Source of the DNA: Bdellovibrionota bacterium
GTDB lineage: Bacteria > Bdellovibrionota > UBA2428
Length of the DNA: 64,000 bases
Direction of reading: 5' to 3'
NCBI GenBank assembly: GCA_964201665.1
Contig: CAXNEW010000003.1
Location: forward strand, 13,284-77,283
Shown: positions 135-13,051 of the stretch, in pieces
How positions within the stretch are numbered: the first letter of the stretch is position 1
How the letters are laid out: each line of letters opens with the position of its first letter
Translations under genes and position numbers: made by a program
Notes under the pieces: model-generated
What the model was told of the DNA's origin: nothing
Databases searched by the model: none
What the model saw: the letters and a program-made list of their open reading frames with translations, nothing else

Positions 135-1511
135 ATGAAGCCACGTGAAATGGATTCTCTTCTTTTTTTAGGTTTAAGCGTGGGTCATGGCGACTCGGCC
201 GAAACTCGCGAGTCAATTGCGTTGGGCGAAGATGGCGGTCGACTTATCTGGGACTCTCTAAAATGTTCTGAGACTGATCCCGTATCGATAGTTTATTTGC
301 AAACCTGTCACCGCGTTGAGCTTTATTCTTGGGGAATTCCCATTCAAAAAATTTACGAGGCTTGGGAAAGTCTTCTAGGGCGCCCCTCAGGCCTGCGCCT
401 GATGCAAAAGAAAATCGGCATCGAGGGGCTCACCCATTTTGTAAGAGTCGCCGCAAGTCTGGATTCTGAAGTTTTGGGTGAAACCCAAATCATGGGCCAA
501 ACTAAAGACGCCATCGAGCGTTCGCGAAGCCAGGGGACCCTGCGTGGTCCCTTAGATAAACTTTTGCAGCACGGAATTAAAGTTTCAAAACAAATACGAA
601 CCGAGGCGAAAATTGGGGAAGGAAATGTGAGTGTGGCCCACGTGGCTCTTGAAGGCCTTCGCGACACCTTTGATTCCTTTGAAGATAAAAAAATATTACT
701 CGTGGGAGTGGGCCGAATGGCCACTCAAAGCCTCGAGAAACTTCTGACCATGGGTGCTGAAAAAATCTATTGGACCAACCGTACTGAAGAAAATCTTTTG
801 AACCATCCTCGAGCTAGCGATGAGCGAATCCAAAGGATTCCCTTTCGCGAACGTCACCACTGGGCATGGGCCGCAGATATTATTGTCAGCGCCGTGAACA
901 CGCCCACTCCTATTTTTTCAGCAGCCGAGCTTGTGGCACTTGGAGCCCAAAGGGGAAGTATCCAGGAGGCCTGTAGGGGCCTCACTAGGGGAGACAAAAG
1001 AAATAATTTTGTAATCCCCAGTTTAAAGATTGTCATCGATTTGGGTTTGCCTCGAAATTTCGACCCCTTAGTTCATGGTCGATTCGGGTACCTGATCCGA
1101 AATGTTGATGAATTTCGAAATGAAGCCCGAGAAAATTTTAAAATTCGTTCAGAAGGAGCCCTTCGGGCCGAAGAAATCCTTCAAAGTGAAATTGAAAATT
1201 TCCGTTTAATATTAAGAAGATGGCATGCCTCTAAGGAGATGAGTGAGCTCTTTTCTTTGTTTAACTTTTTAGATTCAGAAGAAGGTCTAGAAGAAGTTTT
1301 ACTGGAAAAATCTTCAAAAATAGGCTACAAGCTTGGAACGGTTTACGGTCACTTAATGCACCGTTTAAAACGTGAAATTGAGGGTCTCAGCGAAGAAGAT
1401 GCCCAAGTAGTTCTAGAAACGTTGGTAAGGGCATGGAGGCAACCTGAAACATGGCTTCAAAAAAGGGGAGAGCTGAAAATCAGCGTGAGCCCCAAAGAAA
1501 GCAAGGCTTAG
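135..1511 (+). CDS. hemA: glutamyl-tRNA reductase
   Basis: 458-aa ORF. It has the catalytic-Cys motif 'TCHRVELY', 'LDSEVLGETQIMGQ' and the Rossmann segment 'LLVGVGRMA', and is colinear by eye with E. coli HemA. Confidence 0.9.
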   Translation: MKPREMDSLLFLGLSVGHGDSAETRESIALGEDGGRLIWDSLKCSETDPVSIVYLQTCHRVELYSWGIPIQKIYEAWESLLGRPSGLRLMQKKIGIEGLTHFVRVAASLDSEVLGETQIMGQTKDAIERSRSQGTLRGPLDKLLQHGIKVSKQIRTEAKIGEGNVSVAHVALEGLRDTFDSFEDKKILLVGVGRMATQSLEKLLTMGAEKIYWTNRTEENLLNHPRASDERIQRIPFRERHHWAWAADIIVSAVNTPTPIFSAAELVALGAQRGSIQEACRGLTRGDKRNNFVIPSLKIVIDLGLPRNFDPLVHGRFGYLIRNVDEFRNEARENFKIRSEGALRAEEILQSEIENFRLILRRWHASKEMSELFSLFNFLDSEEGLEEVLLEKSSKIGYKLGTVYGHLMHRLKREIEGLSEEDAQVVLETLVRAWRQPETWLQKRGELKISVSPKESKA

Positions 1512-2644
1512 ATAAAATGAAAACCACTCTTGGAACTTCAAAAAAGAAAACAGCAACTCCTGTAGCACCCGCTAAAAAAATCTTGGTAGCCGCAAAAAAA
1601 TTGCCTGTTAAAAAAGCGGAAGCTCCTGTGGCGAAAGTTGCAGAAAAGGCTAAGCGCCCGGGCATGGATTTTATCGGTACCTTTCCGTTTCGAAAGTCGG
1701 TTGACGACAAAAAAACCGAAGCTAAAAAATTACCAACGGGCCCTGTGTTTCCGGTTGGATCCTACAAAATTGTTCATTTTGATACGGCTCTTGCTCGAGC
1801 CTTTGCCCACGAGTTTCAAGAAGTTTTCATGGGCAGGTATTCTTCCGACAAACTGAATTTCGGATTCGTGCCCGTTACAAATATTGCCTCTGACTCTGCA
1901 ACAATTTCCTCTGAAATCGAACGTCTCAAAAATAAAGAAATCGATATTCTTCTTTTGAATATGAAAGATATTCCCTTGGAAATTCCGACTGAACTGACAC
2001 TCGTGTCGGCCTTAAGGCGAGAAGACCCTAGGGACGCGCTCATCACACGAGCCACCTATGGCGCCATTCAAGAACTCCCCACACAGGCGCGAATTGGATG
2101 TAATTCAAAACGTCGACTTATGCAGGTTCGGGCTTTGAGACCTGACTTAAAAATCACTACGACTTTCGGCCCCCTGAATGACAGGCTCAAAAGGCTTGAG
2201 GCCGGCGAAATTGATGCCCTGCTTGTGGCCTGGGCGACATTACGCCGTTTAAATCATTCCCCTCGTTTCTATGTGGCTCTGCAACCTGAGCAAATGGCTC
2301 CGGCGGCTTGCCAAGGCACCCTCGGTGTTATGGTTCGATCTGATGAAGCCGAATTGATTGCTAAACTTCGTTATATTGAAGATTCTGAAGCCTCGTGGAG
2401 TGCTCGATGTGAACGCGCCTTTTTGTCAAAAATTGGCCGAGGACGCGATCTTCCGGCTGGCGTTTTTGCCCACCGTAAAGGAACCCAAGATCCTTGGATT
2501 TTGGACGTCATTTTAGGTGACTCTGTGTCGGGCGAAGTTCTCAAGCACCGTGAAATTGGAACCAGCCGATGCAAGCCTGAGTCCTTGGCGGATAAGGCTT
2601 TTGTGGGGGTGCTATCCAAAGGCGCCCGCAAATTCTTCAGCTAA
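1451..2644 (+). CDS. porphobilinogen-deaminase (HemC)-family paralog, apparently degenerate, with a K/A/P-rich N-terminal tail
   Basis: HemC-like motifs 'NMKDIP', 'REDPRDAL', 'SKRR' and 'PAACQG' are present, but the cofactor Cys position reads 'GRGRDLPAG'. GGAGG lies 11 nt upstream of ATG 1451. An alternative start is ATG 1517, 5 nt after the hemA stop. Confidence 0.7.
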   Translation: MASKKGRAENQREPQRKQGLDKMKTTLGTSKKKTATPVAPAKKILVAAKKLPVKKAEAPVAKVAEKAKRPGMDFIGTFPFRKSVDDKKTEAKKLPTGPVFPVGSYKIVHFDTALARAFAHEFQEVFMGRYSSDKLNFGFVPVTNIASDSATISSEIERLKNKEIDILLLNMKDIPLEIPTELTLVSALRREDPRDALITRATYGAIQELPTQARIGCNSKRRLMQVRALRPDLKITTTFGPLNDRLKRLEAGEIDALLVAWATLRRLNHSPRFYVALQPEQMAPAACQGTLGVMVRSDEAELIAKLRYIEDSEASWSARCERAFLSKIGRGRDLPAGVFAHRKGTQDPWILDVILGDSVSGEVLKHREIGTSRCKPESLADKAFVGVLSKGARKFFS

Positions 2645-2970
2645 CTGGGTTGCCTAAGACGGTACACCGCGGGCTTTTCCAACGAGCGTCGCATCAACAC
2701 AATTTCTCCGATCCTCATTTAGCCTCTCGGCTAAACTCCGGTTCTCAAAATTGAGTTGCTGCGCCTCACGTTGAATAATCCCGCTCGAGGCTCGCGCTGC
2801 TAGGCCTCACTTTAAAAAATTTTGCTTCGCCGCTTGGATTTAATGAGACCGTTTTTGGGGTTTGTTTTTTTTTCGATTGGCGCGAAACTAGATGGCCATC
2901 GTCGATTTTTTGGCCCAATGCATTTTGGGAAGTTTTCGTCTAGAGGGACTTGAGAATAAACAAAAACTAA

Positions 2971-5187
2971 TTAGTGACCCCTTGGCGGTTGTTGGAGTTG
3001 TGGTTTGGGCCGTGTAATTTCTTCACGAAGTGGTTGCTTGTTTTTGGGACCTTCAAAATCATAACTAGAAACAATTCCAAATAAGTTTTTGCTTTCTGAA
3101 ATATTCCCAGACACCGAGTCATTCAATTTCAGGCATTCTTCTCCAAGACCTGAAAGTAATGCGAGACCTCCGAGAGCTGAGACATATTGGGGCGAGGCAC
3201 GAAAGTTTTGATTCTTTTTTAGGTACTGGGCTATGCCGTTGAAATATTTTTTTTCTTGGTCGATTTGGCTCAATAAAACCTCATTGATGCGCTCCCGCAG
3301 TGTTTTTAAAAATTCAACTTGTTCTGAGGAAAGTGCCGATGGTTGTTGAAGTAAAATCTCAATGGCTGATTGCGCATAAGGAACAGAGGCCGGAAAGTAA
3401 TAGGAGGCTATGCCCTCTTCTTTTGAATTGTGAAAGGAATTTCCACTTTGGCTAAAAAAAAGGAAATGATTGACCAGAATATTTAAATTTTTGGAGTAAG
3501 AGTTCAAAGCTAAAAGAAGATTTGCTTGGGCATCATCAGAGCCCGGGTGATTTAAAAAATTTGCTAAATTAGCTGGCACTGAGCGGGCAGCGGATTCGCT
3601 TTCCAAGAATGTGTAAACCCTTCGATCGTCCACTTTCCAATTGTAGGCAAAACGCGTGGGGTATTCTTTGAGATGATCTTCAAGTTCAGTTTTGGCCAGT
3701 TGAAATTGAGGATAGCTAAAAGCTCTAGGAGTTTTTTCACCCTTAGGATTGCCTGCGGCCACAAGCGATGTTGCCCAAGCGTAGGTGTTGGCTGCCGAAC
3801 CTGTGGCTCCCATGTTTCTTTCTAGCATGGGGGCCAAACTTGAAAAGGAACGATCCAACTGGTTCTCCATTTTTTTTTGTTGCTCAGGAGAAATTTTAAA
3901 TTCATCTTTTCGAGCCAAAAATTCCTTGAGGGTTTGGACTTTAAATTGCTCTATGTAAATTTTGTAAGCTGAAAAAGGCTCAAGGCGCACTCGGGTGTCT
4001 TTTTTTGTATTTCCTTTAAGTGTTTGTGAAAAAAAATCATGGGCCCAAACAGAAAGCTTTTGATTGATACAAACTTTGGAGGCCTTCAGCAGAAATAGGC
4101 CATTGAGCTGGTCCATGGCCGCCTCCCAAGAATCCTCGACCTCATCGTCCCTGGGCAATAGGTCCTGGGCTTTTGGAATTTTTTTATCAAGGATCGCTTG
4201 AGCGACTCCACACAGGGCCTCACACCTTAGTTGACTGTTCCATGTTCTAAGTCCTGTGAGGTCATAAATCTTTGGTAGATTGTCGTTGCTGTTTGCAAAG
4301 CCATTGAGAACGGCGTTTTCACTTTTTGGGTTTTTTCTTGCTTGTTCGACAATCCATAACAGGTGCTGCCGAGCAGCCGACGATTTTTCAGCAAGGGTAG
4401 ACAAGGCGCGACCGGCGGTTTCACCGATGGCAGGGTTTCTGTGCTCTAAAAGTTTTTTAATTAATTTCAAGAGTCGATCGGGCGAGGCATTGTTGGCCGA
4501 AAGCATTTCGAGAGATAAATAAATGTGGGGTTCTAAACTGTAATTATTTTCAGCAATCTCAAAAAGAGCACTTTGCACCTCGGGCTTTGAGCCAAATTCG
4601 GGGTCTTCCGCAAAATAAATAAACCTCTCACGGACTACGGGATCGGCCCGTTTGTTTTTTATAATTGAAACAAGGGGCGCAGGATCGAATTTATTGGAAT
4701 GGTAAATAATTCTTAGTCTGTTGGCCGCCTGCCGTCTGTCGGGAGGGGAAAGGGTGGGGTCGCTTACAAAGTTTAGTAATTTTTCTTTGACAAGCTCAAC
4801 CCCGTCCTTCCCCTTCGTGATGACATCGGTAAGGTTAAACAAAATTTTTCCATCGGGGCCTTTGAGGGCCGAGAGCAGTTTTTCTTGAGAAATGACCTGA
4901 CGTTTTTGGGGGTTAAGGGCGTACAGAATATGAATCGCAAATTCTTTTAAGTTTGGGTCCTTAAGCATTTCAAAAAGTCTTTGCCCCTCTGCGGGACTCA
5001 GTTCTGGAAATTTCTCCCAATCAGGAACGTCAAATTTGGTTCCTAGTTTTTGAGCTTCTTGATTCTTTTTTAAAGTCTCAACCAGAGAATCAATTCTAGT
5101 TGAAGCCTTCCTATCCTGAGCTTGAGCCTGGGATACGAGCCATAGAAAAACCACAAAAAACGATGCCAATTTTTGCTTGTTTCCCAT
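2971..5187 (-). CDS. secreted hypothetical protein (738 aa)
   Basis: Long uninterrupted ORF with an ATG start and an N-terminal signal peptide 'LASFFVVFLWLVSQAQAQ'. I recognise no family. Confidence 0.6.
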   Translation of the reverse strand: MGNKQKLASFFVVFLWLVSQAQAQDRKASTRIDSLVETLKKNQEAQKLGTKFDVPDWEKFPELSPAEGQRLFEMLKDPNLKEFAIHILYALNPQKRQVISQEKLLSALKGPDGKILFNLTDVITKGKDGVELVKEKLLNFVSDPTLSPPDRRQAANRLRIIYHSNKFDPAPLVSIIKNKRADPVVRERFIYFAEDPEFGSKPEVQSALFEIAENNYSLEPHIYLSLEMLSANNASPDRLLKLIKKLLEHRNPAIGETAGRALSTLAEKSSAARQHLLWIVEQARKNPKSENAVLNGFANSNDNLPKIYDLTGLRTWNSQLRCEALCGVAQAILDKKIPKAQDLLPRDDEVEDSWEAAMDQLNGLFLLKASKVCINQKLSVWAHDFFSQTLKGNTKKDTRVRLEPFSAYKIYIEQFKVQTLKEFLARKDEFKISPEQQKKMENQLDRSFSSLAPMLERNMGATGSAANTYAWATSLVAAGNPKGEKTPRAFSYPQFQLAKTELEDHLKEYPTRFAYNWKVDDRRVYTFLESESAARSVPANLANFLNHPGSDDAQANLLLALNSYSKNLNILVNHFLFFSQSGNSFHNSKEEGIASYYFPASVPYAQSAIEILLQQPSALSSEQVEFLKTLRERINEVLLSQIDQEKKYFNGIAQYLKKNQNFRASPQYVSALGGLALLSGLGEECLKLNDSVSGNISESKNLFGIVSSYDFEGPKNKQPLREEITRPKPQLQQPPRGH

Positions 5188-5269
5188 CGTAGGCTCATCG
5201 GCATTTTTGTAGGCGAGGTTTAGTTAGTTGTCCGGACTGTTTTTTCAATTTAGGTTTTTGCAAGAATCT

Positions 5270-5290
5270 TACGCAACACTTTGTTGCGTA
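5270..5290. promoter_or_regulatory. perfect 9-bp inverted repeat (tacgcaaca-ctt-tgttgcgta), a candidate operator in a divergent promoter region
   Basis: Read directly from the sequence. It lies ~40 bp upstream of the HTH gene start (GTG 5331), inside the 143-bp divergent intergenic region. Confidence 0.35.
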
Positions 5291-5330
5291 TATCCTTGAC
5301 TAGCGAAATCTAGCAATTAATAAGGGCCAG

Positions 5331-6170
5331 GTGAGCACTCCTAAAGAATTGGCAACTGTCTCTTTAGACTATCGTAGTTTCCTAAGCGATGAACTCACAC
5401 GCCGCCTGGGAGTTAATTCTCGATATTCGTTAAGGGCCTTTGCTCGCGATTTGGGCATGAACCCCGGGCGTCTATCACATATTCTTCGAGGTCATTACGG
5501 TTTATCCCAAGGTGCGGCTCAGACTGTGGCAAAAAAACTAAATCTTGGCCCACAAGAGGCGAAAACTTTTTGTGATCTTGTCGCCCTAAAGCATGGTCGG
5601 TCTCGGGCTGAAAAATCCGAAGCCAGTACAAGACTTAAAGAATCAAAGGCCCAATTTGACGCCTTATCTTTAGATTCCTTTATGCTGATTTCCGAGTGGT
5701 ACCATTTAGCCATTTTAGAATATTTATCTATCCCCAGTGCGAATGTTGATGCTTTTTCAATTTCAAAAAGTCTTAAGATAACACCACAACTTGTTGAGCA
5801 AGCCCTTGAGCGATTGATTCGCCTCAAAATGCTTAAAAAAAGTAAAACCGGTCGAAATTTTAAAACTCTGGGGTCGTTTTTTGTTGATCCTAAGGGCGTG
5901 CCATCAAGAGCGGTACAAAATTTCCACAAACAGATTATCGAACTTGGACTTGGGTCGCTTGTAATGGATTCGCCGGCCGAGCGCGATTTCGGCACTGTAC
6001 TTTTGGCCTTTGATTGTGAGCGCACGGCCGAGGCCCAGGCTGAACTTGAAAAATTTAGATTTAAGTTCAACAAAAAATTTGGAAGCTATAAAAAAAACAA
6101 CCTTGTTTTTGCTCTTTCAACACAGTTCTTCAAAGTTTCAGGAAAGGAACAAAGCCATGAACCAAAATAA
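5331..6170 (+). CDS. TIGR02147/DUF4423-like putative HTH regulator
   Basis: 279-aa ORF with a GTG start. The N-terminus 'DYRSFLSDELTRRLGVNSRYSLRAFARDLGMNPGRLSHILRG' matches my recollection of the Fibrobacter/Bdellovibrio paralogous family. The family assignment comes from memory only. Confidence 0.6.
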   Translation: MSTPKELATVSLDYRSFLSDELTRRLGVNSRYSLRAFARDLGMNPGRLSHILRGHYGLSQGAAQTVAKKLNLGPQEAKTFCDLVALKHGRSRAEKSEASTRLKESKAQFDALSLDSFMLISEWYHLAILEYLSIPSANVDAFSISKSLKITPQLVEQALERLIRLKMLKKSKTGRNFKTLGSFFVDPKGVPSRAVQNFHKQIIELGLGSLVMDSPAERDFGTVLLAFDCERTAEAQAELEKFRFKFNKKFGSYKKNNLVFALSTQFFKVSGKEQSHEPK

Positions 6171-7806
6171 ATCACTGAGAATAACTGCCCTTTGTTTGTC
6201 ATTTTTTATGCAAACCCCACAGAGTTTTTCTGCCATTTTGCCATCGATTGAATTTGAATCGATCTTCGGATTGGGGGATGGCGATGGTGGCGGACAGGTT
6301 GTTGGAAATGGGGGAGATCTTGTGGTTTGTTACATGGGCGACGGAACGCCTCAGGTCAAAACCGCAGAACTTTCTGATTTTTTTGAAGGCCGCGAGATTT
6401 ATCAGCATGTGCACCTCGAAAAACAACAAGACGATTTGTGGAAGTTAAAGTGGCCGCACATTGTAAAAATTGTCCTTGATGATCTTAGGATTCACGATCC
6501 GCAAAGGGCTGACTTTTACGAAAAACAAGTCCCCATTTTTGTGGATGCTGAGAACAGTCATACGGGTCGAAATCAGGACGTGGGGTTTTTGTCAGGTTTG
6601 GAACTGCCGGATGTGCCCGATTCCGGAGGGATTATCCTCCCCGCCAATTGCGTAATCAAGCAAGGCGCTATCTTTAAAACGCGGGAGTTTCCTGATGAAC
6701 CTATTTTTTTAATCAATAGAGATTATTGGAAACATTTGTCCGAAATGTCCAAGGCGGGTTTGGTTTTACATGAGTTAATATTCAAGGAGGCTAAAACTTT
6801 CGCAGCTGTTAACTCGAGAGCCGTACGGAATTTCAATTCTTTGCTTTTTACCCTATCCCTGGGTAAGCGCAGTTTTAGCGATTATTTAAAACGAATTGCT
6901 TTAACCACCATTAAAAAAGTTAAGTTTGGCCGCGATGAATTGCTCACAAATCTTCTAGGTAACTTTGACCTTTTGTTTTCTGTAAGCACCAATCCGACCC
7001 AAGCTGGCGACGCTTTCCTCAAACTCAACAAATATGAAGAAACGGATGAATTTGTTTTGGCCACTGACCAAAACCTTCGGCTGAAAAGGCCAGCCAATAA
7101 TCGTGTTCGAACAATTTTTGATAGCAGTTTCAGTTATCCAGAGGGGCTGAAGGAAATCGGAATTGATGCATTTTTGTTAAACAAAAAACTACTCCACGAG
7201 GGAGATTCGCGCCTAATTTTAAATAAAGTTTTTAAACGATATGATGATGCTGCCCTGGTTCGCAATAGCGATGGTCTAAAAGTGTCTTTTCAATCAGGCT
7301 TACTTCTTTTTGATAAAAGAGGTGAGCTGACTTCGGAGCTAGCAATTCCTTGCACTGAAAACGATCTCAAACTTTTAGAGACCACGAATGTCTCAGGCGA
7401 TCCCAGTACCTTTGGATATTTTACGGAATTTGCAAATGTAGGATTTACCTTTGCAGCGGATGATAACCTTCCCGAGTATCGAGAACTCAAATGCGGAAAC
7501 GACAAAGACCTTCTTTCGATGTCTTTAAACAAAGATTCGAGTTTAAGGCTTCAAAACAAAGGCCTTAGCAGAGATAACTCCAAGGAAAGTGGCGTGAGGC
7601 ATGAGAATTTTCTACTTACTGTCGTTGGTTTAGAAAAGATGAAGTGGACAATTTTTGGGCGCACATGGACCATCGAACCCTTAGAAAGAAAAAAGGTTAA
7701 AGTACTAAAAATTGGCGTTTCAATCGTGGTCGACCTGAAGAATCAACAGCTCTACTTTGGAGATTCTGAAACCGCTGGCAAATGGTTTAGTTTAACTTCT
7801 AAGTAA
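6157..7806 (+). CDS. secreted hypothetical protein (~550 aa)
   Basis: The internal ATG at 6157 gives the signal peptide 'MNQNKSLRITALCLSFFMQTPQSFSA'. It overlaps the upstream HTH gene by 14 nt. The longest ORF starts at 6010. Confidence 0.6.
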   Translation: MNQNKSLRITALCLSFFMQTPQSFSAILPSIEFESIFGLGDGDGGGQVVGNGGDLVVCYMGDGTPQVKTAELSDFFEGREIYQHVHLEKQQDDLWKLKWPHIVKIVLDDLRIHDPQRADFYEKQVPIFVDAENSHTGRNQDVGFLSGLELPDVPDSGGIILPANCVIKQGAIFKTREFPDEPIFLINRDYWKHLSEMSKAGLVLHELIFKEAKTFAAVNSRAVRNFNSLLFTLSLGKRSFSDYLKRIALTTIKKVKFGRDELLTNLLGNFDLLFSVSTNPTQAGDAFLKLNKYEETDEFVLATDQNLRLKRPANNRVRTIFDSSFSYPEGLKEIGIDAFLLNKKLLHEGDSRLILNKVFKRYDDAALVRNSDGLKVSFQSGLLLFDKRGELTSELAIPCTENDLKLLETTNVSGDPSTFGYFTEFANVGFTFAADDNLPEYRELKCGNDKDLLSMSLNKDSSLRLQNKGLSRDNSKESGVRHENFLLTVVGLEKMKWTIFGRTWTIEPLERKKVKVLKIGVSIVVDLKNQQLYFGDSETAGKWFSLTSK

Positions 7807-8904
7807 AAAGGGGTTCACGGACGACTCGATTAACAGCTGTCTGTGAAGGATCCTCGCTGCTGATTTTACCCAATCAGGATCGGAGTTGAGCGAGGGGACA
7901 AGTTTAAGCTTGCCTTTGCCGCCTGTAAATTTCTCAAAGTCCTCTCGCGCGCGAATTTGGATTTCTTCGAGTGTTTCTAAGCAATCGCTCACAAAACTAG
8001 GACACATTACGAGAACGTCCTTTTCGCCTTTGGCCGCAAGCTCCTCGATCACAAAATCGGTAAATGGTTTGAGCCAAGGGGTACGACCCAAACGGCTTTG
8101 GAAACTCACACTCCACCTGCCAGGGGCTAAACCCATTTTTTTGGCAATTCCTTCGGCCGTGGCAAAACATTGTGCGCGGTAACAGCGATTATAAACATTT
8201 TCTAGTTTGCTTGTTTTTTCCGACAACTCACAACAGCTGGCTTGCTGCAAACAATGTTCCTTAGCTTCACAAGAAACTCGGCCAAGATGTCTCTCGGGGA
8301 TACCATGAAAACTCATAAGAACGTAGGGATCAGCCGAGCTCATGTGCTTACCAAGAATATTTGCAAAACTAGAAATAAATTCAGGTTCTTTAAAAAACGG
8401 TTCGCTAAATTTAATTTCGATTTTCTCTGATGCCTTGGCATTTAAAGAGATTGCAATTTTTTTTACTTTGTCTTCAACGGAGGCCGAGGAGGCCCAAGCA
8501 AACTGTGGGTACATTTGAAAAATGAAGATTTCACGCACTCCCTGATCAATAAGTTTTTGCATTCCTGATTCAAGAGAGGGCTGCCCATACCGCATGCCGA
8601 CCTCGATTTTAAGATCTGGAATTTGGGCCCTTAGCTTATCTACAAATTCATGGGTGTGAAAGGCTAAGGGTGAGCCTTTATCAGTCCAAATTTGCTTATA
8701 TGCATGGGCTGATTTTTTTGGCCGCGTGTTGAGAATTATCCCTTTCACTAAAAGCGCTCGTAAGGGCCATGGGATATCAATCACAAAGGGATCCATTAGG
8801 AATTCGTCTAAATAGATTTTGACGTCCTTGGGATTTGGGCTTTGAGGGGTCCCCAGATTCACAACTAAAATTCCCTTTTTCAAGTTCTTAAACTCCTTTT
8901 TCAA
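7792..8904 (-). CDS. hemH: ferrochelatase
   Basis: The N-terminus 'GILVVNLGTPQSP' and overall colinearity match ferrochelatase. The start is TTG at 8904 (TTGA overlap with the hemY stop). TTG at 8883 is more likely because AAGGAG lies 9 nt upstream of it. Confidence 0.9.
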   Translation of the reverse strand: MKKEFKNLKKGILVVNLGTPQSPNPKDVKIYLDEFLMDPFVIDIPWPLRALLVKGIILNTRPKKSAHAYKQIWTDKGSPLAFHTHEFVDKLRAQIPDLKIEVGMRYGQPSLESGMQKLIDQGVREIFIFQMYPQFAWASSASVEDKVKKIAISLNAKASEKIEIKFSEPFFKEPEFISSFANILGKHMSSADPYVLMSFHGIPERHLGRVSCEAKEHCLQQASCCELSEKTSKLENVYNRCYRAQCFATAEGIAKKMGLAPGRWSVSFQSRLGRTPWLKPFTDFVIEELAAKGEKDVLVMCPSFVSDCLETLEEIQIRAREDFEKFTGGKGKLKLVPSLNSDPDWVKSAARILHRQLLIESSVNPFLLRS

Positions 8905-10322
8905 ATTTTAAACTTATTACTTGCGGCCACTTCAGTTGCAATCTTCCAGCAATCATCAAATATTTTTGAAAGGCTTAAATGACCTCTGAAATTTCCGACA
9001 ATTGTGAAGCCAAATTCTTTTTCGAGGCCTTCAAAACTTTGGCTAGCCAAAAATTTTTCAAGATGGATGTCGTAACAGGGTAGGGCCGTTGGCCAAACGA
9101 AAACCGAGGTTGCCGCGGGTTGCCTTAATCCAGGGTTTGATAAATCAAAAATTCGACTCCGATCCTCTAAAGCTGCTGCTATGAGTCTCGATTCAAGGTT
9201 TTTGCCTAGGGCTTTGGACGCAATTTCAAAATTAAGTGAAAATTTTTGTGTCTGGCCAAAAATATAGGTTTCATTTTTTCGCTCATATCGCGCTGGAAAA
9301 ATACAACTATTAAACAACACTCCCAAGCTATTGAAATTTTCAGAACGAGGAAACAAACACCCAAAACCTTGGTTTTGCTTTAGCAGACCCAAGGGAGGCT
9401 CGTTAAACTCCAATGTTAGGGCGGCAAGAGCCAGGGTTGAAAGGGGAGTTGTTTCAAGATTCTGAATGAAATTTTTCAGAGATTCCCTTTGTCTCGACGT
9501 GTAGGCAAATTCGGAGGCCTGGGCCTCCAAATCCTTTATAATCTCTAAAGTGTTTTTCAGATCCAGAGCCAGAAAGACCCGGCTTGGATTTTTCAATTTT
9601 TCGTCAAACCAAGTCCGGGATTCAAATTTTTTATGAGTTAGAATTTCGACCCGTCCCGAATTTTCTAGGAATCTCTTGAGGCTTTCGCACCAAAACTTCA
9701 TTCCCTTAAGTGGCGCTGCAGTGACCCTGCGGGTTTTTGATTTCTCCGTGTCACGTTGCTTTCTTCGATTCATCACGGATCCAACAACTAAGCTTGCGCT
9801 CAAATTTTCTGCCTTGGAGGCGTAAATTCCGCCAAGGCCTGGTTCAAGAAGAAAATCTACAAACTCCCTACCGAAAATATTTTCTCCCCACTCACGCATG
9901 GTCGAAAATTTGTTAGGCTTAAGGGATCTAAACACTAAGGCCCCCACAAGACCTATAAGGACTCGAAGTGTGCCCAAAAAACTAAGGGGCCAGCGCCTCA
10001 TTTTACCTCGAGAAAAAATAAACCGGGCCTTTGAACTTGTGGGATCTGCAAGGATAAGCGAAATTCCTAAATCGGCCGCTGCCTGTTCAATTAAGGGGCT
10101 AACTAAAAAACCATTAGCTGCGCTTTCTGAGAAATGGGATCCAGAGCCTTTTTCGGTTCCAAGTCCCATCAGGCCGCCAAGGTGAGATTGGGACTCAAAG
10201 ATTCTAATTTTGCAGTTGGGATTTTGTTTATACAATGAATACGCCAGCATGAGACCGGTAAAACCTGCACCCGCTATTACAAAATCGGGATCCTTCTTGG
10301 GTACTGGGCTGGCCAAACTCAA
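8901..10322 (-). CDS. hemY: FAD-dependent protoporphyrinogen/coproporphyrinogen oxidase (HemY type)
   Basis: Carries the dinucleotide-binding motif 'FVIAGAGFTGL', is 473 aa long, and sits between hemE and hemH. TTG start directly abuts the hemE stop. Confidence 0.75.
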   Translation of the reverse strand: MSLASPVPKKDPDFVIAGAGFTGLMLAYSLYKQNPNCKIRIFESQSHLGGLMGLGTEKGSGSHFSESAANGFLVSPLIEQAAADLGISLILADPTSSKARFIFSRGKMRRWPLSFLGTLRVLIGLVGALVFRSLKPNKFSTMREWGENIFGREFVDFLLEPGLGGIYASKAENLSASLVVGSVMNRRKQRDTEKSKTRRVTAAPLKGMKFWCESLKRFLENSGRVEILTHKKFESRTWFDEKLKNPSRVFLALDLKNTLEIIKDLEAQASEFAYTSRQRESLKNFIQNLETTPLSTLALAALTLEFNEPPLGLLKQNQGFGCLFPRSENFNSLGVLFNSCIFPARYERKNETYIFGQTQKFSLNFEIASKALGKNLESRLIAAALEDRSRIFDLSNPGLRQPAATSVFVWPTALPCYDIHLEKFLASQSFEGLEKEFGFTIVGNFRGHLSLSKIFDDCWKIATEVAASNKFKI

Positions 10323-11378
10323 TCACGCGCCCTTACCAAAGAACTCACGTACCGCCAGAACGAATTCACGAACGTGGGATTCGGGTGTTTTTGGCAAAAC
10401 TCCATGACCTAAACCGCAAATCCAATTTGCAGGAGCTTGTCCTAAACAACTTTCATAGATTTCTGAAATCCAACTTTTTAAGTATTGCCTAAATTCACCC
10501 GTTGGCAAAAACAAAAGGTTTTGATCAAAATTACCTTGCACAAAAAAAGGACTTTTCGTTTTTAAAAGTTGTGAAAGCGGATAACGATGATCAACACCCA
10601 TTCCTGCCCAGTTTGTATTTTGACCTGACATAAATCCCAGCCGATTAAAATATTGGGGATGGGCACCTCGGGCATAAAACCCAAGTTTTTTTGGAAAACT
10701 TCGAGCCAGTTCTTCTAAAAACGGGGCAATCTCTTTGTCGTAATTTATAAAATCGAGCTCGCCCACGGAACTTTCAAAAACCATCACGCAGTCAGCTCCT
10801 CCTTCAATTTGGAGGCGAATATTTTCTTTAATGAGTGGGAGGAGTCTTTCAAGAAAGGGGCTTAGCATTGCCATCTTTTGTTTGACCCCAACAAAGGAAC
10901 CTTCATGTCGCCCGCCCACAGCGTAAGAAAACAAGGTAAAGGGTCCGCCGACAAAACCCAAAAGTCCCTTATCAGGATGAAGTCTTTGCCGAGTAATCTG
11001 TAGAGCTTTTTTCTGAAATTCTAACTTGGGTAGGCAATCAAAAACAGGAGGAACATTTTTAATGTCCTCAAGCGAGTTTAACGACCTTTCAAACTGAGGC
11101 CCTTTGGCTTCGGAAAAATGAAGACCAAGTCCCCAGGCGTCCAAAGGAAAAAGAATATCACTAAACAAAATTGCAGCATCAAAATCAAAATCCTCAATGG
11201 GTCCCATGGCGACTTCAGCTGCGAGTTCGGGTTGCCGGCACAATTCAAGAAAACTATATTGAGCTCTGAGCTTTTGGTAGTGCTGATGGTATCTGCCAGC
11301 CTGGCGCATAAACCAAATCGGAGGAGCCTCACCCGGCATTTTTGCTTGATTTGAGAGAACCCTTTGAATCGAATTCAT
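10323..11378 (-). CDS. hemE: uroporphyrinogen decarboxylase
   Basis: Contains 'PIWFMRQAGRY' and 'ILFSDIL', which are typical HemE motifs. Its ATG forms an ATGA overlap with the upstream gene's stop. Confidence 0.92.
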   Translation of the reverse strand: MNSIQRVLSNQAKMPGEAPPIWFMRQAGRYHQHYQKLRAQYSFLELCRQPELAAEVAMGPIEDFDFDAAILFSDILFPLDAWGLGLHFSEAKGPQFERSLNSLEDIKNVPPVFDCLPKLEFQKKALQITRQRLHPDKGLLGFVGGPFTLFSYAVGGRHEGSFVGVKQKMAMLSPFLERLLPLIKENIRLQIEGGADCVMVFESSVGELDFINYDKEIAPFLEELARSFPKKLGFYARGAHPQYFNRLGFMSGQNTNWAGMGVDHRYPLSQLLKTKSPFFVQGNFDQNLLFLPTGEFRQYLKSWISEIYESCLGQAPANWICGLGHGVLPKTPESHVREFVLAVREFFGKGA

Positions 11379-13042
11379 AGAGGATTTCTAAGTTGCTTTG
11401 TAAGATCCGTCCACTGGGACTCACCTCCGGGTAAAAGCTCTAGTCGGTCTAAGGGAATCCGATCTTTTAGATATTCATAGGTTTTTCCAGCACCACAGAA
11501 ATGAAAATATTCTGATTTTGTAAAATCAAAACCGCTTTCTTGGGCAAACTTAAATTTCGTAGGGCTTTTCCAGAAAAAAATTTTTTTGCCTTGAAGTTGG
11601 GCAAAAATTTCTTCTCGGGGTTTAGATCGCAGTTGATAAACAGGAAGATTGAGGAAATTTAAATTCTGAGAATCACCATGACTTAAGTGAATTATTTTCT
11701 GAGCTCCCGTAAGCTTTAAGATCCCGTTCCAATCTTCAGATTGAATTCCCGAGGAACTGGAATGGCCCAATGGTCGAAGCCCCCTTTTTAAACACTCAAC
11801 AAAGGTTTTTTCACCGGGAGCCCAAACTAGCCCCAGTGTCATTTCTGCAAACAGCTCTTTAATTTGGGCGCATAGACCTAAGGTCGTTGGATGCGCTGGA
11901 ATCCAGAGAAGAGCTTCGGGCACAATTTTAAATTCCGTTTTGAATTTTCTATAGGATTCCAAAATTGACATTGAGTTGAGAGGAACTCTTTCAACAATGT
12001 CAGGCAAACTCTCCTTGAAGTTGTCGCCTCTAGGAGTGGGCCACATCTCATTTACCGAAGCTGATTTCACAATTTCTAAAATTCGAGAATTGGGTGAAAA
12101 CTCATACCGAATGGGGTTTTCCAAGAAATCCGGATGCTTTTTTTCAGAAACAAAAAAGAATCGCTTTGTGCCCGCCTTGATTTCCACAGTAATTCCTACC
12201 TTTTCGTGGCAACCTCCGCCTAAATCAGACAGGATTTTTCGTTCCGTTTGCACGCAATCAAAATCAGGGGAAGAATTAATTTTGGAAAGAAACCAAGTAA
12301 GATCTGATCTTCCACTAGCAATTTCTAGGGCTAGTGCCCCTTGGGCTGCCGCAGTAGGAAACCACTCCAGAGGTAAAATTCGCAAATCGAACCGACTAAG
12401 AAGATCGGCGATTTCAGTTTTGGGTCCGTCAAATGAATCAAGATTTGGAGTTGAATTGGAATCCACCCAACCTGGAGCACCTAAAATTCTATCAATCGCA
12501 GCCTTAGCCACAAAAATTCCCTGAATTTCAGAATCATTTGAAAATTTTTTCAATCGAGTCAGAATATTTCCGCGTACAGCTACGAATTCTATTTCCGGTG
12601 GTTCTGCTAAAAGTGGAAATAATTTATGGAAATTTTTATTTAAACAGAATTCTCTCCGCGGGGATGAGGTAAAAATTCTTAACTTCGGTATTGAATTATT
12701 AATCCGAAAATTTTTTTTGAGTAAAAGCAAATCACGTGGATCTGCTCTCTTAAGAGTGGCGACTATCTTTGTTTTCTCTTGAGCTTCAATCGGCAGGTCT
12801 TTCCAAGAATGGACAACAATATCGGTTTTGCCTTCGATGAGATCCTCTTTAAAGTCTGATGTGAAAACCCCTTTCTCGGGCATTTTCCAGAGTGGGTCAT
12901 TTTGATTTTGGTCGCCCAGGCTTTCTCTAAAACTAAATTCAAGCCGAGTTTGGGGCAATAGCCTTCGAATTTCTCGGGCAACTTCGTAGGCTTGAATGCG
13001 TGCGAGATCACTTTTTCTTGAGGAAATTCTAAGAACTTTCAT
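11375..13042 (-). CDS. hemC: porphobilinogen deaminase fused to a uroporphyrinogen-III-synthase-like C-terminal domain
   Basis: The N-terminal ~310 aa are HemC ('LRISSRKSDLARIQ', 'HSWKDLP', cofactor Cys in 'LGGGCHEKVG'). The C-terminal ~240 aa show a HemD-like pattern, which is an inference. ATG 13042 is preferred over TTG 13048. Confidence 0.8.
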   Translation of the reverse strand: MKVLRISSRKSDLARIQAYEVAREIRRLLPQTRLEFSFRESLGDQNQNDPLWKMPEKGVFTSDFKEDLIEGKTDIVVHSWKDLPIEAQEKTKIVATLKRADPRDLLLLKKNFRINNSIPKLRIFTSSPRREFCLNKNFHKLFPLLAEPPEIEFVAVRGNILTRLKKFSNDSEIQGIFVAKAAIDRILGAPGWVDSNSTPNLDSFDGPKTEIADLLSRFDLRILPLEWFPTAAAQGALALEIASGRSDLTWFLSKINSSPDFDCVQTERKILSDLGGGCHEKVGITVEIKAGTKRFFFVSEKKHPDFLENPIRYEFSPNSRILEIVKSASVNEMWPTPRGDNFKESLPDIVERVPLNSMSILESYRKFKTEFKIVPEALLWIPAHPTTLGLCAQIKELFAEMTLGLVWAPGEKTFVECLKRGLRPLGHSSSSGIQSEDWNGILKLTGAQKIIHLSHGDSQNLNFLNLPVYQLRSKPREEIFAQLQGKKIFFWKSPTKFKFAQESGFDFTKSEYFHFCGAGKTYEYLKDRIPLDRLELLPGGESQWTDLTKQLRNPL

Positions 13043-13051
13043 ACTCAAAAA

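What the first reader, a model, noticed from the sequence alone, without database searches (positions are those of the whole stretch)
1451..2644. Catalytically degenerate HemC paralog with a polycationic K/A/P-rich tail beside hemA
Seen: residues ~100-397 follow the HemC fold ('NMKDIP', 'REDPRDAL', 'SKRR', 'PAACQG'). The dipyrromethane-attachment Cys of E. coli ('EGGCQVPIG') aligns by eye to Arg ('GRGRDLPAG'). The N-terminal cofactor/substrate-binding segment ('RIATRQSPLALWQ') aligns to 'KIVHFDTALARAF', so Arg and Gln are lost. The first ~70 residues resemble histone H1 ('KKKTATPVAPAKKILVAAKKLPVKKAEAPVAKVAEKAKRP'). An intact HemC with the Cys retained ('LGGGCHEKVG') sits in the hemC/D fusion at 11375-13042. 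Inference: this is a pseudoenzyme kept next to hemA. It could sense PBG or tetrapyrroles, or modulate HemA, with a tail that binds nucleic acid or membrane.
Basis: partly seen in the sequence, partly recalled or inferred. Interest (0 to 1): 0.6.

Follow-up and report, generated by a model that had tools for sequence, protein, structure and literature searches.

The report
Cysteine-less HemC paralog behind hemA
One family of predatory-type bacteria (Bdellovibrionota) keeps, directly behind the first haem-pathway gene, a very strongly conserved copy of the enzyme HemC that has lost the cysteine and several residues needed for HemC chemistry. It has gained a new invariant surface and a positively charged floppy tail, so it most likely works as a non-catalytic helper or sensor of early haem synthesis, a role not yet described.

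Summary
ORF 1451-2644 (+) encodes a 397-aa protein with the full three-domain HemC fold (AF2 pLDDT >90 for residues 100-397; TM 0.94 to V. cholerae HemC). The cofactor cysteine (E. coli C242) is Arg332. R149, Q19 and R11 are also lost, and the N-terminal ~70 residues are a K/A/P/S/T-rich tail.

It is not a one-off. It defines a tight family (67 clusters) found in all 20 sampled genomes of one GTDB family of Bdellovibrionota and in none of 381 other genomes of the phylum. It always follows hemA, overlapping it or within about 40 nt. It co-occurs with an intact hemC/D fusion, whose C-terminal half models as uroporphyrinogen-III synthase.

The haem pathway is complete without it. No member has Cys at position 242, and the catalytic Asp is not conserved (50 of 67). 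The cofactor-type carboxylate binders (K83, S129, R131, R132, R155, R176, Q198) are mostly kept.

Constraint is inverted relative to real HemC: domain 3 is the most conserved part (76% versus 43% pairwise identity), with two invariant blocks. The gene evolves more slowly than hemA, hemCD, hemE and hemH in the same genomes.

Best reading: a selected, non-HMBS, pyrrole-binding accessory or regulatory protein of early haem synthesis. Its mechanism is unproven.

The parts
135..1511 (+). hemA (glutamyl-tRNA reductase), 458 aa. Its 3' end overlaps the paralog's start by 61 nt.
   Evidence: PF05201 E 1.2e-23, PF01488 E 1.3e-14, TIGR01035 E 4e-51. The TCHR catalytic motif is conserved across f1.
1451..2644 (+). 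HemC-like paralog ('HemCL'), 397 aa: the whole ORF of the finding.
   Evidence: GGAGG lies 11 nt upstream of the ATG at 1451. An alternative ATG at 1517 lies 5 nt after the hemA stop.
1451..1666 (+). Polycationic K/A/P/S/T-rich tail (residues 1-72), predicted to be disordered.
   Evidence: pLDDT 47-65. It holds 17 K, 4 R and 5 D/E. Family tails have a median length of 57 aa, 21% K and a median net charge of +14, and their sequence is not conserved.
1667..1750 (+). Conserved N-terminal linear motif DFIGTFPFRK...KK..KK...GPVF (residues 73-100), specific to this family.
   Evidence: F74, I75, G76, F78, P79, R81, K87, K88, P98 and V99 are at least 90% conserved. K92, K93, G97 and F100 are invariant in 32 members. 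pLDDT is 64-78.
1760..2365 (+). HemC domains 1 and 2 with the pyrrole-carboxylate cleft. Kept: K172 (=K83), D173 (=D84), S219 (=S129), R221 and R222 (=R131, R132), R245 (=R155), R266 (=R176), Q288 (=Q198). Lost: F239 (=R149).
2309..2311 (+). Cys287, a family-specific cysteine at the position of E. coli Gly197 ('PAACQG').
   Evidence: Cys in 61 of 67 members. Gly in 13 of 14 canonical HemCs sampled.
2444..2446 (+). Arg332, at the position of the dipyrromethane-attachment Cys242 of E. coli HemC.
   Evidence: HMMER alignments to PDB chains. No member of 67 has Cys here; the residues are R, G, W, P, S and others.
2366..2641 (+). Domain 3 (residues 306-397), the most conserved part of the family.
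   Evidence: Mean pairwise identity is 0.76 here, against 0.38 for domain 1 and 0.60 for domain 2. Canonical HemC gives 0.43, 0.56 and 0.61. In 1.84 billion representative proteins, domain 3 alone finds only this family, one canonical HemC fragment at E 2.8e-5 and three spurious beta-repeat proteins.
2471..2500 (+). Invariant block HRKGTQDPWI (residues 341-350), the beta-hairpin turn of domain 3.
2549..2599 (+). Invariant block REIGTSRCKPESLADKA (residues 367-383, including Cys374), the loop and start of the following helix of domain 3.
11375..13048 (-). hemC/D fusion: a catalytically intact HemC (with the Cys in LGGGCHEKVG) plus a divergent HemD-like C-terminal half (about 11378-12148).
   Evidence: PF01379 E 3.2e-46, TIGR00212 at 174 bits, above cut-off. 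The C-terminal model (pLDDT 83) hits uroporphyrinogen-III synthases 3re1, 1jr2, 4es6 and 3d8t first.
7792..11378 (-). hemH, hemY and hemE: the rest of the convergent haem operon that accompanies the hemA-paralog pair in all relatives.
   Evidence: Conserved synteny in 19 loci.

Best explanation
Shown:
- The gene encodes a HemC-derived protein that is under strong purifying selection and is very unlikely to be a hydroxymethylbilane synthase.
- It occupies the slot directly behind hemA. In other Bdellovibrionota families that slot holds the functional hemC (hemA-hemC-hemD or hemA-hemCD).
- It descends from a standalone-type HemC, not from the resident fusion.
- It is tightly packed against hemA, so the two genes are probably co-transcribed and translationally coupled.
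- The true HMBS and uroporphyrinogen-III synthase are supplied by the hemC/D fusion. With HemL, HemB, HemE, HemF, HemY and HemH, the protoporphyrin-dependent pathway is complete without the paralog.

Inferred mechanism:
- The protein keeps the HemC cleft residues that, in real HemC, hold the acetate and propionate groups of the resident dipyrromethane (K83, S129, R131, R132, R155, R176, Q198).
- It has lost the covalent anchor (C242) and the residues for incoming substrate and chain elongation (R149, Q19, and R11 in this genome).
- It therefore probably still binds a pyrrole or tetrapyrrole (PBG, hydroxymethylbilane, uroporphyrinogen or haem) statically rather than polymerising it. The new cleft Cys287 may act as a ligand or attachment point.
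- The output would go through a new, invariant, highly polar surface at the pole of domain 3 far from the cleft (HRKGTQDPWI, REIGTSRCKPESLADKA and EDSEASW), together with the N-terminal FIGxFPxR motif.
- The variable polycationic tail would act as an electrostatic tether to a polyanion (RNA, DNA or membrane).
- The most likely role is a non-catalytic accessory or feedback factor of the first haem-pathway steps, made together with GluTR. This is analogous in position to HemX of Firmicutes and in logic to the plant GluTR-binding protein.
For: - Fold: AF2 pLDDT is 85.9 overall and above 90 for residues 100-397. Foldseek finds HemC structures first (5h6o TMt 0.94, rmsd 1.8).
- Loss of defining residues. 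TIGR00212 scores below its cut-off and PF03900 is absent.
- Distribution: the paralog scores 577-623 bits in 20 of 20 genomes of family f1. The other 381 genomes of the phylum score 153 bits or less.
- Synteny: hemA is followed by the paralog in all 18 of 19 loci that have upstream sequence. hemCD is present in all 14 loci that extend far enough downstream.
- Spacing: the annotated or first possible paralog start overlaps hemA or lies within about 40 nt of its stop, often 2-10 nt.
- Other families place the functional hemC behind hemA.
- Tree: the paralog clade has 100% support, a long stem (1.35) and short internal branches. It nests with standalone and canonical HemC (96% support), apart from the fusions.
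- Selection: the paralog has the lowest mean p-distance (0.41) of five haem genes in the same 12 genomes. Domain 3 is 76% identical.
- Pathway completeness: hemL in 20 of 20, hemB in 17 of 20 and HemF in 16 of 20 genomes, with ChdC in none. The fusion's C-terminal half has the HemD fold.
- Roles of the HemC residues follow established E. coli and human HMBS structure-function work, recalled from my own knowledge.
- Precedents for GluTR accessory factors: S. aureus HemX (PMC5801465) and the plant GBP (PMC6597238), both found.
Against:
- Ligand binding is inferred only from retained residues. One subclade (P0064-P0067) has lost K83, D84, R132 and R155 yet keeps the domain-3 invariants, so cleft binding may not be the family's core function.
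- f1 HemA has no unusually invariant patch (9% invariant columns). The invariant domain-3 pole may therefore bind something other than HemA, or be a new catalytic site.
- Distance-matrix correlations do not single out HemA as the partner.
- The placement of the invariant blocks at the distal pole rests on HemC topology recalled from known structures.
Confidence: 0.5

Rival explanations
1. It has a new enzymatic activity. The invariant polar pole of domain 3 (Cys374, His341, His366 and several Arg, Lys, Asp, Glu, Ser and Thr) would be a new active site. It would act on a pathway metabolite (for example glutamate-1-semialdehyde, ALA, PBG or HMB) or on Glu-tRNA. The old cleft would serve only as a binding module.
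For: There are seventeen contiguous invariant residues plus a second ten-residue invariant block. Invariance is higher than in the true enzymes of the cluster. This domain is not found in any other architecture among 1.84 billion representatives. HemA has no matching invariant patch.
Against: There is no similarity to any known catalytic motif or family. The pathway has no missing step. HemC domain 3 has no precedent as a catalytic module.
Confidence: 0.15
2. It is an active HMBS isoenzyme with a relocated anchor. Cys287, at the floor of the cleft next to Q198, would replace C242 as the attachment site of the dipyrromethane cofactor, or the enzyme would work with a non-covalent primer.
For: A family-specific Cys is present in 61 of 67 members, adjacent to the cofactor-contacting Q198 and G199. 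K83, R131, R132 and R155 are kept, and D84 is kept in this genome.
Against: Cys287 is S, T or G in 6 members. D84 is E, N or Q in 17 of 67; E. coli D84E is nearly inactive and D84A/N are inactive (my recollection of published mutagenesis). R149 and Q19 are lost and R11 is lost in about half. Domain 1 is relaxed (38% identity). An intact HemC is present in 18 of 20 genomes of the family.
Confidence: 0.07
3. It is a prozyme-like partner of the active paralog. The dead HemC would bind and activate or stabilise the HemC/D fusion, as in trypanosomatid AdoMetDC and DHS prozymes.
For: A dead and an active paralog co-occur in the same gene cluster in every genome with enough sequence. The dead-paralog activator paradigm is documented (PMC5201418, PMC3663545).
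Against: HMBS is a monomer in all solved structures (my knowledge). Related fusions in sister families (f7, f9, f13, f14) function without any paralog. The gene is coupled to hemA, not to hemCD.
Confidence: 0.07
4. It is a tail-driven nucleic-acid factor. The protein would mainly be an RNA- or DNA-associated protein, for example capturing tRNA(Glu) or Glu-tRNA for GluTR, or sitting on the nucleoid or ribosome. The HemC body would be an adaptor.
For: The polycationic tail has a median net charge of +14 and conserved composition. In this genome, similar tails sit on ribosomal proteins S20 and L17. GluTR's substrate is a tRNA.
Against: Eight of the 60 cluster representatives with the motif have almost no tail as annotated. 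The same kind of tail also sits on a peroxiredoxin and a PilZ protein, so it may be a generic lineage trait. No nucleic-acid-binding fold is present.
Confidence: 0.1
5. It is a decaying relic of the ancestral hemC with no function.
For: Catalytic residues are lost and a functional replacement is present.
Against: The frame is intact in all 20 f1 genomes across 10 genera. It is the slowest-evolving gene of the cluster, with invariant blocks and short internal branches.
Confidence: 0.02

Closest known systems
Hydroxymethylbilane synthase / porphobilinogen deaminase (HemC; EC 2.5.1.61; PF01379 + PF03900; TIGR00212; PDB 1pda, 1ah5, 5h6o, 4mlq, 3ecr)
   Same: It has the same three-domain fold (TM 0.89-0.94). 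It is about 28-30% identical to gammaproteobacterial HemC. It keeps K83, D84 (in this genome), S129, R131, R132, R155, R176, Q198, G199, E231 and R232. It lies directly behind hemA, as hemC does in many bacteria.
   Different: It has no Cys242 and has lost R149, Q19 and R11. Ser81 is Asn. A new Cys sits at position 197. PF03900 is not recognised and TIGR00212 scores below cut-off. Domain 3 is rebuilt into an invariant polar surface. It has a 30-residue conserved N-terminal motif and a polycationic tail. It co-exists with a true HemC.
HemX of Firmicutes (hemAXCDBL operon; modulates GluTR abundance, PMC5801465)
   Same: It is the gene immediately downstream of hemA, it is not a pathway enzyme, and it acts on GluTR level. 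This is a positional and logical analogue.
   Different: HemX is an integral membrane protein with no homology to HemC. The functional link of the paralog to GluTR is only inferred.
Plant GluTR-binding protein GBP (haem-binding feedback factor for GluTR, PMC6597238)
   Same: It shares the concept of a tetrapyrrole-binding accessory protein that couples end-product level to GluTR.
   Different: The fold and lineage are unrelated. Neither haem binding nor GluTR binding has been tested here.
Dead-paralog regulators ('prozymes') of trypanosomatid AdoMetDC and deoxyhypusine synthase (PMC5201418, PMC3663545)
   Same: It is a catalytically degenerate paralog retained beside an active one and under selection.
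   Different: Those act by heterodimerising with the active paralog. Here the gene is coupled to hemA, and the active paralog works without it in sister families.
Lys/Ala/Pro-rich histone-H1-like tails of bacterial proteins (for example on nucleoid and ribosomal proteins)
   Same: The composition is similar (K 21%, A 19%, P 9%, S+T 23%, almost no acidic or aromatic residues), the tail is predicted to be disordered, and its length varies.
   Different: It is attached to a metabolic-enzyme scaffold. There is no sequence homology, only compositional likeness.

Membership tests
Hydroxymethylbilane synthase (HemC, EC 2.5.1.61) | Three-domain HemC fold (two periplasmic-binding-protein-like domains plus an alpha/beta domain 3) | tested here: met
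   The AF2 model has pLDDT above 90 for residues 100-397. Foldseek to 5h6o gives TMt 0.94 and rmsd 1.8 over 292 columns.
Hydroxymethylbilane synthase (HemC, EC 2.5.1.61) | Cysteine on the domain-3 loop that carries the dipyrromethane cofactor (E. coli C242) | tested here: not met
   The position is Arg332 in the window protein. None of 67 family members has Cys there.
Hydroxymethylbilane synthase (HemC, EC 2.5.1.61) | Catalytic Asp (E. coli D84) | tested here: inconclusive
   Asp173 is present in this protein. In the family the position is D in 50, E in 12, N in 4 and Q in 1.
Hydroxymethylbilane synthase (HemC, EC 2.5.1.61) | Substrate-binding and elongation residues R11, S13, Q19 and R149 | tested here: not met
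   R149 corresponds to Phe239 and is variable in the family. Q19 is hydrophobic. R11 is lost here and in about half of the family.
Hydroxymethylbilane synthase (HemC, EC 2.5.1.61) | Cofactor carboxylate binders K83, S129, R131, R132, R155 and Q198 | tested here: met
   K172, S219, R221, R222, R245 and Q288 are present. Family counts out of 67 are 60, 60, 66, 55, 63 and 67.
Hydroxymethylbilane synthase (HemC, EC 2.5.1.61) | Score above the curated equivalog cut-off (TIGR00212, 164 bits), and PF03900 C-terminal domain present | tested here: not met
   TIGR00212 scores 156.3 bits. PF01379 matches only profile positions 61-205. There is no PF03900 hit.
Hydroxymethylbilane synthase (HemC, EC 2.5.1.61) | PBG deaminase activity | not testable with these tools
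   This needs an enzyme assay or complementation of a hemC mutant.
Pseudoenzyme / dead-paralog regulators | A catalytically degenerate paralog under purifying selection that co-exists with an active paralog | tested here: met
Pseudoenzyme / dead-paralog regulators | Physical or functional interaction with a partner enzyme | not testable with these tools
   Only gene adjacency and likely translational coupling to hemA could be shown.
Known GluTR regulators (HemX, GBP, FLU) | Sequence or fold homology to one of these families | tested here: not met
   Only HemC families match in Pfam, NCBIfam and PDB.

The most novel reading that the evidence does not exclude
The HemC scaffold has been turned into a tetrapyrrole- or haem-sensing adaptor made stoichiometrically with GluTR. 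The old cleft, with the new Cys287 as ligand, would read pathway intermediates or haem. The new invariant domain-3 pole and the polycationic tail would hold tRNA(Glu)/Glu-tRNA or a ribosome-proximal site. This would gate how much Glu-tRNA is diverted from translation into haem synthesis. It would be a previously unknown kind of control point for the C5 pathway.
Probability: 0.1. Interest if true: 0.8.

Novelty: new variant of a known kind. Interest (0 to 1): 0.55.

Why it matters
HemC is regarded as a single-function housekeeping enzyme, and I found no report of a conserved non-catalytic HemC paralog in four literature searches.

Here a whole bacterial family keeps such a copy under stronger constraint than its real haem enzymes. 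It sits in the hemC slot behind hemA, with a rebuilt invariant surface. If it binds pyrroles or haem and acts on GluTR, it would be a new bacterial solution to feedback control of the rate-limiting step of tetrapyrrole synthesis. It would also be a clean example of enzyme-to-regulator neofunctionalisation after a redundant gene was acquired.

Practically, these genes are currently named 'hydroxymethylbilane synthase' in public records. That name is probably wrong.

Two things limit the impact. The family is narrow and so far known only from metagenome-assembled genomes, and the function is still inferred.

Tried and rejected
1. The paralog supplies a missing uroporphyrinogen-III synthase. Pfam HEM4 finds nothing in 20 of 20 f1 genomes. 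A profile of the fusion's C-terminal half finds nothing in the PDB by sequence, and hhalign against true HemD gives only 1.4% probability. However, the AF2 model of that half hits four uroporphyrinogen-III synthases first, and fusions of f16 and f25 carry a true HEM4. Rejected.

2. The paralog fills a missing late step. HemF is present in 16 of 20 genomes, ChdC in none, and hemE, hemY and hemH lie in the cluster. The pathway is complete. Rejected.

3. f1 HemA co-evolves with the paralog. The GlutR_dimer domain is weak or undetected in f1 but also in most other families. f1 HemA has no special invariant patch. Mirror-tree correlations are uniformly 0.75-0.91. No signal.

4. The three conserved cysteines (287, 320, 374) form a metal site. 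Cys320 also occurs in V. cholerae HemC. By HemC topology the three sit in different parts of the protein. Considered unlikely, but not testable without coordinates.

5. Domain 3 occurs in other architectures. A search of 1.84 billion representatives found only this family, one canonical HemC fragment and spurious beta-repeat proteins.

6. A word-based search with the fusion's C-terminal half found only itself.

Full report
OBSERVATION

The ORF at 1451-2644 (+) is real and encodes 397 aa. It overlaps the 3' end of hemA (135-1511) by 61 nt. A GGAGG lies 11 nt upstream of the ATG at 1451, and a second ATG at 1517 follows the hemA stop by 5 nt. The N-terminus 'MASKK' recurs in relatives ('MA[STAV]KK'), which favours 1451 as the start.

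Pfam finds only PF01379, over residues 157-302 and profile positions 61-205 (E 3.9e-38). The C-terminal HemC domain PF03900 is not detected. The NCBIfam equivalog TIGR00212 scores 156.3 bits, under its 164-bit cut-off.

HMMER alignments to the E. coli and V. cholerae HemC chains of the PDB place 'EGGCQVPIG' opposite 'GRGRDLPAG', so the cofactor Cys242 is Arg332 here. The hemC/D fusion at 11375-13048 (-) keeps every catalytic residue, including the Cys.

FOLD

An AlphaFold2 model built on a 114-sequence alignment has pLDDT above 90 for residues 100-397 and below 65 for residues 1-70. Foldseek against the PDB returns only HemC structures at the top (5h6o TMt 0.94, rmsd 1.8 over 292 columns; E. 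coli 1pda 0.91). The sequence profile misses the first 60 profile positions, but all three HemC domains are present in the model.

A FAMILY, NOT A ONE-OFF

A search of 5.8 billion proteins found 67 clusters at E below 1e-79 (44-64% identity). There is then a gap to canonical HemC at about 1e-36.

In a scan of 401 Bdellovibrionota genomes, the paralog (577-623 bits) occurs in all 20 sampled genomes of one GTDB family (f1, 10 genera). The best match in every other genome scores 153 bits or less. Eighteen of the 20 f1 genomes also show the second, fusion-type HemC.

Nineteen further genome loci, all MAGs labelled Bacteriovoracaceae or Bdellovibrionota, show the same arrangement. hemA is followed by the paralog on one strand. 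hemH, hemY, hemE, hemCD and a lytic transglycosylase gene (slt) lie on the other strand, transcribed from slt towards hemH and so converging on the paralog.

The hemA stop and the paralog's possible start either overlap or lie within about 40 nt, often 2-10 nt apart (for example TAAagaATG and TAAaaATG). No terminator-like site lies between them in the window. This argues for co-transcription and translational coupling.

WHAT CHANGED IN THE SEQUENCE

Across the 67 members:
- Position 242 is never Cys; it is R, G, W, P, S and others.
- R149 is variable and Q19 is hydrophobic.
- R11 is kept in about half of the members, but not in this genome.
- S81 is Asn in 54.
- The catalytic D84 is D in 50, E in 12, N in 4 and Q in 1.

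The residues that hold the carboxylates of the resident dipyrromethane in real HemC are largely kept. This assignment comes from the published E. coli and human HMBS structures and mutagenesis, recalled from my own knowledge. The counts out of 67 are K83 60, S129 60, R131 66, R132 55, R155 63, R176 65, and Q198 and G199 67 each.

A family-specific Cys replaces Gly197, next to Q198 on the floor of the cleft, in 61 of 67 members. One divergent subclade (P0064-P0067) has also lost K83, D84, R132 and R155.

WHERE THE CONSTRAINT LIES

Mean pairwise identity per domain is inverted relative to canonical HemC:

| Domain | Paralog | Canonical HemC |
|---|---|---|
| 1 | 0.38 | 0.56 |
| 2 | 0.60 | 0.61 |
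| 3 | 0.76 | 0.43 |

Two blocks of domain 3 are invariant: HRKGTQDPWI (341-350) and REIGTSRCKPESLADKA (367-383). D311, E313, S315, W316, R319 and C320 on the first helix of domain 3 are also invariant. These blocks are kept even in the subclade with the degenerate cleft.

By HemC topology (my knowledge of the E. coli structure), the hairpin turn, the loop before the penultimate helix and the start of the first helix all lie at the pole of domain 3 away from the active-site cleft.

A 30-residue N-terminal motif (FIGxFPxR...KK..KK...GPVF) is also nearly invariant.

Searched alone against 1.84 billion representative proteins, domain 3 finds only this family, one canonical HemC fragment at E 2.8e-5, and spurious repeat proteins.

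In the same 12 genomes the paralog is the slowest-evolving of five haem genes. Its mean p-distance is 0.41, against 0.45 for hemE, 0.54 for hemH, 0.58 for hemCD and 0.60 for hemA. It is therefore neither a relic nor an ordinary HemC.

ORIGIN

In a maximum-likelihood tree of 86 HemC domains, the paralogs form one clade (100% support) on a long stem (1.35 substitutions per site) with short internal branches. The clade nests among standalone and canonical HemCs (96% support). The f1 fusion HemCs group with the fusions of sister family f7 (100% support).

In other families of the phylum, hemA is followed directly by the functional gene. The order is hemA-hemC-hemD in f4, f5, f10 and f11, and hemA-hemCD in f7, f9, f13, f14 and f16.

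The paralog is thus the occupant of the ancestral 'hemC slot'. Once a hemC/D fusion was present, it apparently became free to change.

IS ANYTHING MISSING THAT IT COULD REPLACE?

No. In f1, hemL is present in 20 of 20 genomes, hemB in 17 of 20 and HemF in 16 of 20. ChdC is present in none. hemE, hemY and hemH are in the cluster.

Pfam HEM4 finds no HemD in any f1 genome, and sequence profiles of the fusion's C-terminal half fail to reach HemD. However, its AF2 model (pLDDT 83) hits uroporphyrinogen-III synthases first (3re1, 1jr2, 4es6 and 3d8t; probability 1.00; E 3e-5 to 2e-4; 215-245 columns). Fusions in f16 and f25 carry a Pfam-recognisable HEM4. The protoporphyrin-dependent pathway is complete without the paralog.

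THE TAIL

Among the 42 members with tails of at least 30 aa, mean composition is K 21%, A 19%, S+T 23%, P 9% and D+E 3%, and aromatic residues are about 1%. The median net charge is +14 (range +5 to +53). Over the 60 members that have the motif, the median tail length is 57 aa (range 1-198). The sequence itself is not conserved.

In this 68%-complete genome only 8 of 1809 ORFs of at least 120 aa have such a window. They include ribosomal proteins S20 and L17, an AhpC/TSA peroxiredoxin and a PilZ protein. The tail is therefore a rare, lineage-typical polycationic appendage. It is plausibly an electrostatic tether to RNA, DNA or membrane, but it is not specific to this protein.

MECHANISM

Best reading, confidence about 0.5. 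The protein is a selected, non-HMBS derivative of HemC. It probably still binds a pyrrole or tetrapyrrole in the old cleft, because the cofactor-type binders are kept while the anchor and elongation residues are lost. It probably acts through the new domain-3 pole and the N-terminal motif as an accessory or feedback factor of the first haem steps, and it is made together with GluTR.

What is shown: the fold, the residue losses, the conservation pattern, the distribution, the synteny, the origin and the pathway completeness. What is inferred: ligand binding, the partner and the role of the tail.

Two results caution against a simple 'binds HemA' model. f1 HemA has no matching invariant patch, and one subclade has a degenerate cleft.

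The rivals are listed in their own section with refutation tests: a new catalytic site at the domain-3 pole, an active HMBS with a relocated Cys, a prozyme-like partner of the fusion, a tail-driven RNA or DNA factor, and a relic.

COMPARISON AND NOVELTY

By fold and descent it belongs to the HemC superfamily. It fails the defining tests of HMBS: the cofactor Cys, the substrate and elongation residues, the equivalog cut-off and PF03900.

Functionally the nearest concepts are HemX (the gene after hemA that controls GluTR level, PMC5801465), the plant GluTR-binding protein (PMC6597238) and dead-paralog 'prozymes' (PMC5201418). None is homologous to it.

Four full-text searches found no description of a HemC pseudoenzyme. 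An earlier AI note from this scan, on another genome (e1-895045), reached a similar reading. It is a lead, not independent evidence. I reproduced its main claims here on this window and added these points:
- the restriction to one family of the phylum;
- the origin from a standalone HemC in the hemA slot;
- the HemD fold of the fusion tail;
- pathway completeness;
- the rate comparison;
- the Cys at position 197;
- the absence of a matching HemA patch.

VERDICT

This is a new variant of a known kind. Interest is moderate to high for tetrapyrrole specialists, limited by the narrow uncultured lineage and the unproven function.

Noticed in passing
window 11378-12148 (-), C-terminal half of the hemC/D fusion; also L003-L021 and L030-L039: The C-terminal ~200-250 residues of the hemC/D fusions of families f1, f7, f9, f13 and f14 escape Pfam HEM4 and sequence profiles. 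The f1 (window) version models as uroporphyrinogen-III synthase, and the others share its motifs. This looks like a very divergent, shortened HemD lineage that annotation pipelines probably miss.
   Followed up: partly
window 2971-7806: Three genes lie between the paralog and hemH. They are a 738-aa protein with an N-terminal hydrophobic segment (possibly a signal peptide) and weak HEAT-repeat hits, an HTH/DUF4423 protein, and a 598-aa protein with no clear family match. In most related loci hemH follows the paralog directly, so this looks like an insertion specific to this genome.
   Followed up: partly
window 2645-2970: A 326-bp ORF-free spacer lies between the convergent paralog and the 738-aa gene. 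Another first-stage note flags it as a possible structured RNA or repeat (e1-2876567). I did not examine it.
   Followed up: no
genome G000: C6 (-) S20, C83 (+) L17, C31 (-) AhpC/TSA peroxiredoxin, C5 (+) PilZ protein: Lys-rich tails like the paralog's occur on only 8 of 1809 ORFs of at least 120 aa. They include two ribosomal proteins, a Bcp-type peroxiredoxin (about 70-residue N-terminal tail) and a PilZ protein.
   Followed up: partly
L049-L053 (G009, G033, G187, G294, G081): In families f7, f9 and f14, the GlutR_N-containing frame directly upstream of hemCD is only about 300-330 aa and matches weakly (E 1e-5 to 1e-11). This suggests a truncated or very divergent GluTR without the usual dimerisation domain. 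BLAST with f1 HemA at E<=1e-8 finds none of them.
   Followed up: no
L009-L012, L015, L016, L018, L021: hemA-paralog junction: In eight loci hemA and the paralog are in the same reading frame. In six of them (L010-L012, L015, L018, L021) they are separated only by a TAA stop, one codon and the ATG. This is most simply tight translational coupling. Stop-codon read-through to a HemA-paralog fusion was not examined.
   Followed up: no
window 135-1511 (+), hemA: HemA of this genome scores below the TIGR01035 cut-off (174 versus 209.55 bits) and has no detectable GlutR_dimer domain. Only 8 of 20 f1 genomes give a weak PF00745 hit.
   Followed up: partly
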